Origin: Laetmonice hystrix | Taxonomy: Eukaryota | DNA length: 64,000 bases | Reading direction: 5' to 3' | Assembly: GCA_965235115.1 (NCBI GenBank) | Contig: OZ249449.1 | Location: 9,300,001 to 9,364,000 of the forward strand | Part shown: in pieces, positions 12,001-15,000 of the stretch | Layout: each line of letters starts with the position of its first letter | Numbering within the stretch: the first letter of the stretch is position 1 | Made by a program: the position numbers

Positions 12001-15000
12001 TAAAATTAAATCGAGGACAACAACTCTCTATGAGATCACCACTTACCACTCCATTTGATTCACCTTGATCCTCCGAAGTCGTTTCCAAGTCAGAACTTGC
12101 CGTTGACGAGAATGACTCCGATAGATTGACCCGCTGCCCATTCATTACACCCTGCCCATTTCCATGGCAATTTTCTGTGGCTTCAGAGTTGTTTTTTTGC
12201 CCATTGCTATTGTTATTGTTGCTGTCTCCGCTTGCATAGAGCGCTTTGGTTTGGTGGAATGTTGAGGCAAATTCATTTACAATTGTTCGGTCCGAGTCAA
12301 TTTTAGCAAGGTTGTTTTCACATGCCATACAGAGCAATGGGGAGCGACATGTCGCTGGATCAAGTACCAAGAGCAAGACTGTCTCAAGACGGTCTTTGAG
12401 ACCCGGTTCCAACAAGTTGTCCTTAGCAAAGATATTTTTTGACTTGTTATCTTTACTGCTTTGGTGGCAGACCAAACACACTGTGGTATTTGGGACTGAC
12501 TGAGCTTGAGATTCACAATATTCTAAAGTTTGTTGGAAAGATTCACGGAATGCATCAACACTGCACTGGTAGTCATCTATGTCTTCCATTTTTTCTTCAC
12601 AGCATCTGCACAGGAGGCCGCTGTGACAAGTTGCCTCCTCCAACTCCACCTAAAAATAAAATTAAAACTCATTATAATACAACCTGCAAAAATTATCAAC
12701 CGTGGATCCCTAAGTAGCAGGTCCATCTTGAAAATGACGATTTTGAACAAAATCAACATTACATCTGATGTGATGGCAAAGGTGTGGCAATTTCTAAAAA
12801 AAACAGGGAAGGAATTTTTATACAACATCAACAATGAGAAGCTCTCGGATGACCCACAGAACTAATCTGAGGAAAATAGGTATGATAATCATTGATAGGA
12901 GAGGAGCATGCTTCCTATATCTAATATACTATATGTGGGCAGATAGATCACTCAGCTTACCTGTAGCACCACCTGGAGCCTCTCTTTAAGCGGCTGCAAT
13001 CCCAGCATGCCTTTTTCGAACACATTGCTGGCCGTAGCCCCCAGGGGGCCATTACAAACAAGGCACAGGTCTGCTGCCGGCGCCATACTTCAGCCAATCA
13101 AAATCCCTGTAATAAAGTTAAAATAAAAAAAGTTAAATTTGACATAGAATTTGTCAACTTCCGTGGGTCTTATTTTGGGGCCAGATTTCTCACTCAAACC
13201 CTGTTTACTGCTAACATATTTCTGACATTTCTTTCTATATAACTGAATCGGTGAATTTAATAAGGGCCTAACTACATGAGACAAAATGTTCTACATGGTG
13301 AGTTCCTATTTGTGTTCAATAGTAACTATGGCTCTATCTTGCACGGTATACGACTTAGAAGATGTCAATGATGTCATTATGACTTATGACATCACGCTTT
13401 ATCACAAATTTTGGTGTCAATCAAAAGAGCATATTATACTTCCTATTCATGTTCAACAGTAACCATTGCTCCATCTTGTATAGTTTACGAGTTATAATCC
13501 TTATAAGATGCCAATGATGCAATTATGACGATTGACATTGATACAATATACCATAAATATTGGTGTCAATTGAAAGAGCACACTACTTCCTATTCCTCTT
13601 TAATTAACAGAATGTATGGCTCTATCTGGCACCGTTTACAAGTTATAGCCATGGATATCTAAACTGACCATTGTTCAAAATTTCAAGGTCACATGGTTCA
13701 GCGAAACTAGGTCAACTCGTTGTTGCACAGGAGATTCCTTTGAACCTCTCTTAAGAGGATATTGCTGTGCAATATCATGAAATTTTAAATAAAATTGAGG
13801 GAGTAGGGATTTAAGCATTTTCTAACCCTTGACCCAGCTCTTATATAGGTCAAAGGTCAAAATATTTGAAAAAATTAATTAGGTCCCTACCCAATAATTT
13901 TTATTTTGATAGCGTCATCAGTCCTAGAAACTGCAGGGGTGGCGTTTGGACTCGACCGGTCGACCGAGGCGACTAAAAATGAGCCCGGGCGACTAGGCAT
14001 TTACAGAACACACGCCCAGTTGGCGACTAGCAAATTCTGGGGACATAGATCTAGACCATGATATCAGTAAACTTGCAGACGACAACCCTGATTATCTAAC
14101 AACATGTGGAGATATCTACAAGGAGTAGCCCCCCCACCTCCCAAAAAAGTCAAATTAGGTGACGAACAGCGGAAGGAGCATGACAGAGAGTATGAAAAGT
14201 TGAGATGCAGATCATTCTTTGCAGGGTGGCAGAAAGGGAGAGAATGGCTAATCTACAGAATCTGAATGTTTAGACTCTGGGCTAGCAATTTTTCATCCGG
14301 GCTAGTTGATTTTTTACTTTACTAGCCCGGCAGGCTAGTTCCTAAAAACTTTAATTTCCACCCCTGAACTGTTGATATTTACCTTGAAAACCGTCCCAAA
14401 ACACGAATGACGTCATAACGTCTTGATGTTACTATCAACATGTCCACCAAGTTTGACTTATATATCTTGAAAAACGACCGACCTGTGTTTACTATGACTA
14501 CAACTACTACTATGCAAATAATACAATTCAGACAAACAGAAACCGTACCATTTCAAGATCCTATTCCCCTAGGGAGGGATCATGGGATAATAAAACAACT
14601 TGATTTAAATTACCTCCTATTTGTACATTTACAAGTAGTCAGAAAGATGCCAGACCATTGATACCATGTTTGTGTCTTACTGTAATCTCTGATTCCGTAA
14701 CTGGGGTTAAACACTTATTCAGGCATGTATGCTCATTGGGTCAAATACGGTACCTTGATTTACCCAACAACACTTTGTGAATATTATATGACTTTATATA
14801 ATAGATTCACAACTTCTGAGGCAAAGTACAATTTCACGACACAAGTTTTTCTTACATGAGCAAGGCAAGTAAAGTTTGAAACTCCCTTGTGAGAGATAGA
14901 GGCCAGAATGAATTGACTTATCTTGAAATCATTACCTCATTACCTCGTACCTAGCCCCAACCCCATTACCAAATTTTTTCTCACCAGATTTGTGCAAATT

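What the first reader, a model, noticed from the sequence alone, without database searches (positions are those of the whole stretch)
12047..13086. Tandem double ZAD-like domain in a non-insect C2H2 protein
Two adjacent domains with C-x2-C ...~45 aa... C-x2-C and shared NVF/NIF, LKERL/LKDRL and F..F..T motifs. ZAD is established as an insect-expanded dimerisation module, usually single and N-terminal, with essentially one vertebrate example (ZNF276). A duplicated ZAD in a deuterostome-like genome would be an unusual architecture.
Basis: partly seen in the sequence, partly recalled or inferred. Interest (0 to 1): 0.65.

Follow-up and report, generated by a model that had tools for sequence, protein, structure and literature searches.

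The report
Two tandem ZAD-like zinc domains
The first two exons of a probable zinc-finger transcription-factor gene in an unidentified animal genome encode two adjacent copies of a small zinc-binding pairing domain known mainly from insects, which is an unusual arrangement of a known part rather than a new kind of part.

Summary
Coordinates 12047-13086 (minus strand) are exon 1, a 311-bp intron and exon 2 of one gene. They encode two adjacent Cys4 domains that are clear internal duplicates of each other (BLASTP E 3e-6 and 3e-11).

Domain 2 lies wholly in exon 2. It matches Pfam zf-AD only below the curated cut-off (17.2 bits against 28). Its AlphaFold2 model (pLDDT 84) finds only solved ZAD structures as its ten best PDB matches, with TM about 0.5-0.7 but no E-value at or below 0.001. 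A predicted homodimer just reaches the tool's mark.

Domain 1 is split by the intron.

The link to the C2H2 exon (1-1434) is inferred from strand and phase alone. "Non-insect" and "deuterostome" are unproven; weak leads point to Mollusca.

The family is rare: 3 relatives among 1.84 billion representatives. Two of them keep the same tandem layout.

A third copy of the domain, in a separate gene, lies at 55821-62739.

Verdict: a real tandem ZAD-like pair, a new variant of a known kind, of moderate interest.

The parts
12961..13086 (-). Exon 1 of gene 1 (42 codons from the ATG). It holds the N-terminal half of ZAD-like domain 1: the first C-x2-C (C8, C11), NVF and LKERLQVVL.
   Evidence: Sequence and translation. 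A stop lies one codon upstream of the ATG (ORF 12955-13089). Donor GT at 12960/59. 44% identity to domain 2 residues 53-92, E 3e-6. Family HMM E 3.5e-5, positions 3-43.
12650..12960 (-). Intron 1 (311 bp, GT..AG, phase 0). It splits domain 1 between the first helix and the second Cys pair.
   Evidence: Read from the sequence. No RNA evidence.
12527..12649 (-). Exon 2 residues 1-41. This is the C-terminal half of domain 1: TCHSGLLCRCC, then a long helix.
   Evidence: 41% identity to domain 2 residues 94-134, E 3e-11. Family HMM i-E 1.9e-7, positions 44-83. Helix at residues 14-46 of the 139-residue model, pLDDT 91-93 in its middle. Conserved in P0003 and P0005.
12230..12493 (-). Exon 2 residues 53-140. 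This is the complete ZAD-like domain 2 (C58/C61 ... C107/C110).
   Evidence: Pfam zf-AD E 0.006, 17.2 bits, profile positions 1-60 of 75. AF2 pLDDT 84.3. Foldseek ranks 1-10 are all ZAD structures. Predicted homodimer score 0.33 against best control 0.01.
12047..12229 (-). Exon 2 residues 141-201. This is an N/S/G-rich low-complexity linker that ends at a GTAAGT donor.
   Evidence: Translation. Similarity to P0003 continues through this tail and stops at NGVVS, that is, at the donor.
1..1434 (-). Probable downstream exon of the same gene, with at least 7 C2H2 fingers. It runs off the window start. Acceptor AG at 1436/1435, phase 0.
   Evidence: Pfam zf-C2H2 1.2e-14 and zf-H2C2_2 4.7e-18. Acceptor read. 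The link to exons 1-2 is inferred from strand and phase only. I counted the fingers by eye.
55821..55952 (+). Gene 2 exon 1 (44 codons from the ATG). It holds the N-terminal half of a third ZAD-like domain (CLVCGQ..., NVF), with donor CAG|GTAAGG.
   Evidence: 48% identity over 23 residues to domain 2, E 0.011. This is weak on its own.
55918..62192 (+). A 54-bp minisatellite of 116 copies. It begins inside gene 2 exon 1 and repeats the exon's last 35 bases, the donor and 19 intron bases.
   Evidence: TRF score 11841, 97% matches. Sequence. The ORFs stay open through the array.
62591..62739 (+). Gene 2 exon 2. It holds the C-terminal half of the third ZAD-like domain (RLENVL..TCASSFFCLSC..). An in-frame TAA at 62741-62743 overlaps a GTAAGT.
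   Evidence: Sequence. 34% identity to domain 2 residues 87-136, E 4e-8. Family HMM E 2e-8.

Best explanation
The region is the 5' end of a protein-coding gene on the minus strand. Its product begins with two tandem, paralogous Cys4 zinc modules of the ZAD (zinc-finger-associated domain) fold. They arose by an old internal duplication. Each module has an N-terminal C-x2-C knuckle, a short helix (LK.RL..VL) and a second C-x2-C that opens a roughly 30-residue helix.

The modules are followed by a low-complexity linker and, most probably, by a dispersed array of at least 7 C2H2 fingers.

By analogy with solved ZADs, each module binds one zinc through its four Cys. It serves as a self-association surface (an antiparallel pairing along the long helix) for a DNA-binding factor.

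Shown here: the exon structure, the duplication, its conservation in relatives, and the predicted fold of domain 2.

Inferred: zinc binding, dimerisation, the ZAD nature of domain 1 (through its likeness to domain 2), and the link to the C2H2 exon.
For: Duplication:
- Exon 1 against domain 2's N-half gives E 3e-6. Domain 1's C-half against domain 2's C-half gives E 3e-11.
- The pieces tile one full domain in alignment A3.

Fold of domain 2:
- The AF2 model has pLDDT 84.3 and pTM 0.68, with short strands, a helix at 32-40, a strand at 53-55 and a helix at 56-87.
- Foldseek against PDB gave 13 matches at E<=10. Ranks 1-10 are all ZAD crystal structures: Pita 7pok, M1BP 7po9, CG2712 6fp5, Grauzone 1pzw, Serendipity-d 7poh and rabbit ZNF276 7ppp. 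TM is 0.48-0.74 and probability 0.72-1.00.
- The ten best matches were again all ZAD structures for the 139-residue model.

Sequence:
- Pfam zf-AD gives E 0.006 for domain 2 (profile 1-60 of 75).
- The 43%-identical relative P0004 gives E 5.5e-5, 23.8 bits, profile 2-73 of 75.
- 2 of the 4 family members match zf-AD at E<=10.
- Bona fide insect ZADs scanned the same way score only 26.8-46.4 bits (8 of 8 with one stretch each).
- hhalign of the family against those 8 insect ZADs puts both Cys pairs in register, P 0.018. 1 of 200 column shuffles reaches the observed score.

Defining features (PMC5509000, passages):
- Size 71-97 aa.
- Two invariant Cys pairs about 50 aa apart.
- A long C-terminal helix of about a third of the domain.
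- An antiparallel dimer.
- The first three are met.

Pairing:
- Complex prediction of two copies of domain 2 scored 0.33 against a best control of 0.01.
- The mark was reached by 21 of 30 proteins solved as pairs of one chain and by 0 of 23 solved as single chains.
- On eukaryotes it was reached by 17 of 29 pairs (animals 7 of 16), but by only 1 of the 7 with no older solved relative, and by 0 of 30 single chains.
- The runs agree in at least 94% of contacts, and partner pLDDT is at least 75.
- The interface is symmetric: the knuckle (5-10), residues 39-41 and the long helix (58-86).

Conservation:
- Invariant columns include all four Cys.
- P0003 (64% identity) and P0005 (25%) both carry domain 1's C-half followed by domain 2. 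The tandem layout is therefore older than their divergence.
Against: - No copy reaches Pfam's curated zf-AD cut-off of 28 bits.
- Domain 2 scores higher against PF18658, the Spin-doc finger (23.3 bits, also below its cut-off of 27.3).
- P0003 and P0005 match no Pfam family at E<=1.
- No Foldseek E-value is at or below 0.001.
- The models rest on a 4-sequence alignment. AlphaFold2 and the complex predictor may reproduce ZAD from memory, as the tool warns. The complex score clears the mark by only 0.01.
- Sequence searches of PDB found nothing at E<=10.
- hhalign probability is only 2.5%.
- An HMM of 8 insect ZADs did not find gene 1's exon 2 among 1986 window ORFs at E<=20.
- Domain 1 was never searched or folded whole.
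- There is no transcript evidence.
- The C2H2 link is inferred.
- The organism is unknown.
Confidence: 0.75

Rival explanations
1. The domains belong to another zinc-finger family, not ZAD. The named candidate is the Spin-doc-type finger (Pfam PF18658, zf-C2H2_12). The ZAD likeness would then be a generic Cys-pattern resemblance.
For: - PF18658 is the best Pfam row for exon 2 (E 0.0025) and for domain 2 alone (E 5.1e-5, 23.3 bits, 2 stretches).
- It is better than zf-AD in both cases.
Against: - The match is below PF18658's cut-off (27.3).
- It covers only profile positions 3-33 of 64.
- It is seen in 1 of 4 family members, against 2 of 4 for zf-AD.
- A C2H2 finger needs a His pair, and no His column is invariant in the family. 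Domain 1's C-half has no His after its second Cys pair.
- No Spin-doc or C2H2 structure appears in the fold searches.
- PMC4999995 (passage) notes that Pfam files zf-AD in the C2H2 clan, and that conserved metal ligands cause biased cross-similarity between such families.
Confidence: 0.08
2. The modules are relatives of the single-zinc ZFa module of the RAG1/RAG1-like/Chapaev N-terminal zinc domain. That would make them a transposase-derived part rather than a transcription-factor ZAD.
For: - Atlas rank 9 is a cluster named RAG1 importin-binding domain (score 0.84).
- bioRxiv 10.64898/2026.01.24.700457 (passages) reports local similarity between ZAD and ZFa.
Against: - An Atlas score under 0.9 is a lead only, by the tool's own words.
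- No transposase core lies next to these exons. The neighbouring coding exon is C2H2.
- Per that preprint, the RAG1 domain is defined by two zinc sites. Only four Cys are invariant here.
- The fold searches return ZADs.
Confidence: 0.04
3. The ORFs are not a working gene. They would be a decayed copy or a chance open frame, and the two-domain protein is never made.
For: - There is no expression data.
- No annotated full-length protein holding this domain was found.
- The paralogue at 55.8 kb carries a 6.3-kb minisatellite in its intron.
Against: - The frames are open and the GT-AG sites are canonical and in matching phase.
- 64% identity to P0003 ends exactly at the donor.
- Ligand and core residues are conserved down to 25% identity.
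Confidence: 0.05

Closest known systems
Arthropod ZAD (Pfam PF07776 zf-AD), for example Drosophila Pita (7POK), M1BP (7PO9), CG2712 (6FP5) and Grauzone (1PZW)
   Same: - Size of about 80-88 aa.
- Two Cys pairs 44-45 residues apart.
- The predicted order of knuckle, short helix, strand and long C-terminal helix.
- These are the best structural matches, with TM up to 0.74.
- N-terminal position ahead of a low-complexity linker and, probably, C2H2 fingers.
- A predicted symmetric pairing along the long helix.
   Different: - There are two copies in tandem, about 10 residues apart. The 8 insect ZAD proteins I scanned have one each.
- The score is below the Pfam cut-off.
- An extra Cys six residues before the second pair (TC.S..LC..C) is present in 5 of the 6 domain copies compared.
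- The fingers come in spaced groups rather than one tight array (by eye).
- The organism is apparently not an arthropod, though this is unproven.
Vertebrate ZNF276/ZFP276 ZAD-like domain (rabbit structure 7PPP)
   Same: - It is a ZAD-like domain outside arthropods, in a C2H2 protein.
- It appears among the structural matches (rank 10).
   Different: - It is a weaker structural match than the fly ZADs (TM 0.49/0.56).
- ZFP276 has one ZAD-like domain (human residues 77-163, PMC12649048) and five C-terminal fingers (PMC8887482).
- This gene has two domains starting at residue 8 and at least 7 fingers.
- No evidence of orthology was found. The search with the C2H2 exon gave only generic hits at 21-33% identity.
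Spin-doc zinc finger (Pfam PF18658)
   Same: Local sequence likeness around the second Cys pair.
   Different: - Only half of the profile is covered.
- There is no conserved His pair.
- There is no structural match.
RAG1/RAG1L N-terminal zinc domain, ZFa module
   Same: It is a single-zinc helix-rich module that the preprint's authors compare to ZAD.
   Different: That domain has two interdigitated zinc sites and sits on a recombinase or transposase. Neither feature is seen here.

Membership tests
ZAD (Pfam PF07776 zf-AD) | Score at or above Pfam's gathering cut-off (28 bits) | tested here: not met
   - Exon 2 scores 14.5 bits.
- Domain 2 alone scores 17.2 bits.
- Relative P0004 scores 23.8 bits, and P0003 and P0005 have no match.
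- For scale, one of 8 insect ZAD proteins also scores below the cut-off (26.8 bits).
- A Pfam-based table in PMC5094011 lists no zf-AD for ZIPIC and Zw5. PMC5009728 (search listing only) names those as homodimerising relatives of Pita.
ZAD | Two invariant Cys pairs about 50 residues apart, and a domain of 71-97 aa (PMC5509000) | tested here: met
   - The spacing is 44 residues in domain 1 (counted across the intron) and 45 in domain 2.
- All four Cys are invariant in 4 of 4 sequences.
- The modelled piece is 88 aa.
ZAD | Fold: an N-terminal globule around the zinc, then a long C-terminal helix of about a third of the domain | tested here: met
   - This rests on prediction only, and only for domain 2.
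- The AF2 model has pLDDT 84.3 and a helix at 56-87 of 88.
- Foldseek ranks 1-10 are all ZAD structures, but no E-value is at or below 0.001.
ZAD | Antiparallel homodimer | tested here: inconclusive
   - The predicted homodimer of domain 2 scored 0.33 against a best control of 0.01, and the mark is 0.32.
- The mark was reached by 21 of 30 solved one-chain pairs and by 0 of 23 single chains.
- On eukaryotes, only 1 of the 7 with no older solved relative reached it.
- Contact agreement is at least 94% and pLDDT at least 75.
- Because ZAD dimers are solved, the pass may show likeness only.
ZAD | One zinc bound by the four Cys | not testable with these tools
   I could not read the model coordinates, and no metal was modelled.
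ZAD | N-terminal position in a protein with a C2H2 cluster | tested here: inconclusive
   - The first Cys is residue 8 after the only possible ATG of exon 1.
- The C2H2 exon lies on the same strand 10.6 kb downstream with a phase-0 acceptor.
- No transcript or annotated relative shows the join.
ZAD (domain 1 specifically) | A whole-domain match to the profile or the fold | not tested
   - Domain 1 spans an intron, and the joined sequence was not made.
- Its halves alone match no Pfam family.
- Both halves match domain 2.
Spin-doc zinc finger (PF18658) | The gathering score (27.3 bits) and a conserved Cys2-His2 ligand set. That the set is Cys2-His2 is taken from the family's name, zf-C2H2_12. 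| tested here: not met
   - The score is 23.3 bits over profile positions 3-33 of 64, in 1 of 4 members.
- No His column is invariant.
RAG1/RAG1L N-terminal zinc domain | Two zinc sites, ZFa plus ZFb (bioRxiv 10.64898/2026.01.24.700457) | tested here: not met
   - Only four Cys are invariant.
- One further Cys is common but not universal.
- This was judged from sequence only.

The most novel reading that the evidence does not exclude
The tandem pair may be a single-chain ZAD dimer.

In the predicted homodimer, the C-terminal end of one long helix lies against the N-terminal knuckle of the partner. The roughly 10-residue linker between domain 1's helix and domain 2's first Cys could therefore let the two domains pair with each other inside one polypeptide.

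That would give either a closed, monomeric ZAD unit or, if each domain pairs between molecules instead, a bivalent unit able to chain DNA-bound factors into higher-order assemblies.

It would sit in a small, previously undescribed ZAD-like family of a non-arthropod (possibly molluscan) lineage. That family also includes single-domain, perhaps finger-less, members (gene 2 here, and P0004).
Probability: 0.3. Interest if true: 0.6.

Novelty: new variant of a known kind. Interest (0 to 1): 0.4.

Why it matters
In the papers I read, ZAD is treated as an arthropod-expanded homodimerisation module with a single vertebrate representative. Its only evident function is pairing of C2H2 architectural proteins (PMC7913770, PMC5509000, PMC12649048; passages).

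A conserved tandem pair outside arthropods would be a natural experiment on how ZAD pairing specificity works. It could show a covalently linked pseudo-dimer or a bivalent connector.

It also shows that divergent ZAD-like domains escape the Pfam threshold, so the domain's range in animals is probably under-counted.

Two phrase searches of the paper library found no description of two ZADs in one protein. Domain-architecture databases such as InterPro could not be consulted and may already list such cases.

Tried and rejected
- **Longer relatives of exon 2.** 719 candidates of 353-2000 aa were examined and none scored E<=0.001. No annotated full-length relative was found.
- **Profile search with A1.** It returned the same 3 proteins out of 3022 candidates.
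- **PDB sequence searches.** Exon 2 and profile A1 both gave 0 matches at E<=10.
- **C2H2 exon search.** 2095 proteins scored E<=1e-5 and the 120 listed are generic C2H2 proteins at 21-33% identity. There is no orthologue and no ZNF276 link.
- **HMM of 8 insect ZADs against 1986 window ORFs.** The best hit was gene 2 exon 2 at E 0.56. Gene 1 exon 2 was not listed at E<=20. This HMM is too shallow to decide anything.
- **Pfam on the half-domains alone.** There was no zinc-finger family. In one search the gene 2 exon 1 reference was one base off, so that row is void.
- **Taxon.** Rfam at gathering scores gave 0 matches and ARAGORN gave 0 tRNAs. The listing of cluster members could not be made. 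Only Atlas leads remain.
- **Intramolecular pairing.** The 139-residue model (pTM 0.72) could not be inspected for contacts. The low-ranked helical-hairpin matches are only a hint.
- **Papers.** Chung et al. 2002 and 2007 are not held and are cited second-hand. One paper search was badly framed and gave nothing useful. A find in bioRxiv 10.1101/2025.05.21.655257 returned 0 occurrences of my terms.
- **Rejected readings.** A C2H2/Spin-doc finger (no His pair), a RAG1-type double-zinc domain (no second site, no transposase) and a chance ORF (conservation stops at the splice donor).
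Full report
**What is there**

On the minus strand the finding's coordinates hold two exons.
- Exon 1 (13086..12961) starts at an ATG that lies one codon after an in-frame stop. It has 42 codons and ends at a GT donor.
- Exon 2 (12649..12047) follows a 311-bp intron. It has 201 codons and ends at GTAAGT.
- Both boundaries are in phase 0.
- The next convincing coding stretch on this strand is a long open frame at 1..1578 with a phase-0 acceptor at 1436/1435. It has strong C2H2 finger matches (zf-C2H2 1.2e-14, zf-H2C2_2 4.7e-18). I count at least seven fingers by eye, and the frame runs off the window.
- Nothing between 1578 and 12047 on this strand looks coding. Much of that stretch is minisatellite.
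- That the three exons make one transcript is an inference from strand and phase.

- The exons carry four C-x2-C pairs: exon 1 C8/C11, and exon 2 C14/C17, C58/C61 and C107/C110.
- Domain 1 runs across the intron with 44 residues between its pairs. Domain 2 lies inside exon 2 with 45 residues between its pairs.
- The two are plain duplicates. Exon 1 aligns to exon 2 residues 53-92 (44% identity, E 3e-6). Exon 2 residues 1-41 align to residues 94-134 (41% identity, E 3e-11).
- Among 1986 six-frame ORFs of the window, only this one holds C..C.{38,52}C..C.

**A limit set by the task**

Domain 1 was therefore never searched or folded as a whole. Its assignment rests on the match of each half to domain 2.

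**Relatives are few**

- An exhaustive phmmer scan of 1.84 billion cluster representatives with exon 2 residues 1-140 gave 3 proteins at E<=0.001.
  - P0003: 206 aa, 64-66% identity.
  - P0004: 89 aa, 43% identity, a single domain.
  - P0005: 201 aa, about 25% identity.
- All three are unnamed ORFs from large ENA contigs.
- Searches for longer relatives and with a profile added nothing.
- The library does hold annotated animal proteomes (one search lists named fish, insect, crustacean and mollusc proteins). The family is therefore rare or very divergent, not merely unsampled.
- P0003 and P0005 both begin inside domain 1's C-terminal helix and continue through domain 2.
- Likeness to P0003 ends exactly at the window's GTAAGT donor.
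- The tandem layout and the exon end are thus conserved. P0005 is so distant that the duplication must be old.

**Is it ZAD?**

By sequence it is borderline.
- Pfam zf-AD matches domain 2 at E 0.006 (17.2 bits, profile 1-60 of 75). It matches P0004 at E 5.5e-5 (23.8 bits, profile 2-73 of 75). Both are under the 28-bit cut-off.
- P0003 and P0005 match nothing.
- The Spin-doc finger model scores higher on domain 2 (23.3 bits). That is under its own cut-off, over half of the profile, and without the His pair that such a finger needs.
- PMC4999995 (passage) notes that Pfam files zf-AD in the C2H2 clan, and that ligand conservation causes such cross-matches.
- Eight insect proteins carried PF07776 among the 120 rows listed. 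Scanned the same way, they score 26.8-46.4 bits with one zf-AD stretch each.
- A profile-profile comparison of the family with those eight ZADs aligns both Cys pairs at P 0.018 but probability 2.5%. 1 of 200 column shuffles reaches that score.
- An HMM of the eight did not find gene 1's exon 2.

By predicted structure the answer is clear but model-dependent.
- The AlphaFold2 model of domain 2 was built from 4 sequences and has pLDDT 84.3 and pTM 0.68. It shows a knuckle with short strands, a helix at 32-40, a strand at 53-55 and a helix at 56-87.
- Foldseek against PDB returned 13 matches at E<=10 and none at or below 0.001.
- Ranks 1-10 are all ZAD crystal structures from six entries: Pita, M1BP, CG2712, Grauzone, Serendipity-d and rabbit ZNF276 (TM 0.48-0.74). 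The other two listed matches have E>7.
- A second model covers exon 2 residues 2-140 (pLDDT 79.9, pTM 0.72). Its ten best matches are again all ZAD structures, out of 40 matches with none at or below 0.001.
- The features that a review lists for ZAD are size, two Cys pairs about 50 apart and a long C-terminal helix (PMC5509000, passages). All three are met.

**Pairing**

- Two copies of domain 2 were predicted to pair symmetrically through the knuckle, residues 39-41 and the long helix. The score was 0.33 against a best control of 0.01.
- The mark (0.32) was reached by 21 of 30 proteins solved as pairs of one chain and by 0 of 23 solved as single chains.
- On eukaryotes it was reached by 17 of 29 pairs, but by only 1 of the 7 with no older solved relative.
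- The runs agree in at least 94% of contacts, and pLDDT is at least 75.
- ZAD dimers are solved, so this shows likeness more than binding.

**Mechanism**

- Most likely each domain binds one zinc and acts as a self-association surface for a DNA-binding factor, as fly ZADs and the ZFP276 domain do (PMC7913770, PMC12649048; passages).
- What the second copy adds is open.
- In the predicted dimer, the end of one long helix touches the partner's N-terminal knuckle. Only about ten residues separate domain 1's helix from domain 2's first Cys. An intramolecular pseudo-dimer is therefore geometrically plausible.
- The alternative is two independent pairing surfaces that could chain molecules.
- I could not test either reading without the joined sequence or the model coordinates.

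**Organism**

- Nothing identifies the organism.
- The Atlas placed the domain nearest to mollusc clusters (0.87, one with zf-AD in 30% of members). It placed an unrelated 337-aa ORF nearest to mollusc and cnidarian clusters (0.90, 0.88, 0.87). The tool rates such scores as leads.
- "Deuterostome-like" has no support.
- "Non-insect" is likely but unproven.

**A third copy**

- On the plus strand, 55821..55952 (ATG, CLVCGQ..., NVF) and 62591..62739 (RLENVL..TCASSFFCLSC...) are the two halves of another domain of the same family. E is 0.011 and 4e-8 against exon 2. The family HMM gives E 2e-8 for the second half.
- Its intron sits seven residues earlier than in gene 1.
- That intron holds a 54-bp, 116-copy minisatellite that repeats the exon's end and its donor.
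- An in-frame TAA follows exon 2 at once. This may be a finger-less single-ZAD protein like P0004.

**Novelty**

- The passages I read describe ZAD as arthropod-expanded with one vertebrate gene. [quoted passage not shown]
- Two phrase searches found no paper describing two ZADs in one protein.
- Domain-architecture databases and paper supplements could not be seen and may list such cases.
- I rate this a new variant of a known kind, with interest 0.4.

Noticed in passing
window 55821-62739 (+): A second gene carries a single ZAD-like domain of the same family. Its intron holds a 54-bp x 116-copy minisatellite (55918-62192) that starts inside exon 1, so every unit repeats the exon's last 35 bases and the CAG|GTAAGG donor. 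The unit is 18 codons long and stays in frame. Use of a later donor would insert 18-residue blocks into the domain.
   Followed up: partly
window 62739-62743 (+): Gene 2 exon 2 is followed at once by an in-frame TAA that overlaps a GTAAGT. The product may be a roughly 94-residue finger-less ZAD-only protein, similar in size to the single-domain relative P0004 (89 aa). A splice from this donor to the acceptor at about 63379 would not enter the AT-hook frame.
   Followed up: partly
window 63353-64000 (+): An open frame running off the window end holds two copies of a KPPARKRGRPRK-type motif (Pfam AT_hook E 0.13, below its cut-off) within a 147-bp x 2 tandem repeat.
   Followed up: no
window 12230-12649 (-), 62591-62739 (+), and relatives: An extra Cys six residues before the second Cys pair (TC.S..LC..C) is present in 5 of the 6 domain copies compared and absent in P0005. 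The 8 insect ZADs aligned show no Cys at that place. Its role is unknown.
   Followed up: no
window 30838-31212 and 42719-43072 (+): Two exons of a protein-kinase gene (Pfam Pkinase E 5e-6 and 0.024) lie between the two ZAD-like genes. From memory they look like glycogen synthase kinase 3. I did not check this with a tool.
   Followed up: no
window 32553-33566 (+): A 337-aa open frame with no Pfam match lies inside the presumed kinase intron. Its nearest Atlas clusters are unnamed mollusc and cnidarian proteins (0.90, 0.88, 0.87). It may be a mobile-element remnant.
   Followed up: partly
window 3430-4610, 9239-10323, 29067-30055, 35298-35827, 40849-41278, 45070-45372: The window holds many long minisatellites (units of 67, 22/64, 58, 61, 43 and 46 bp, with 7-50 copies). 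The 43-bp array is 100% identical across its 10 copies.
   Followed up: no
window 18633-19616 (-): A 327-aa Ser/Thr/Lys-rich open frame with no Pfam match lies upstream of gene 1 on the same strand. It may be the last exon of a neighbouring gene.
   Followed up: no
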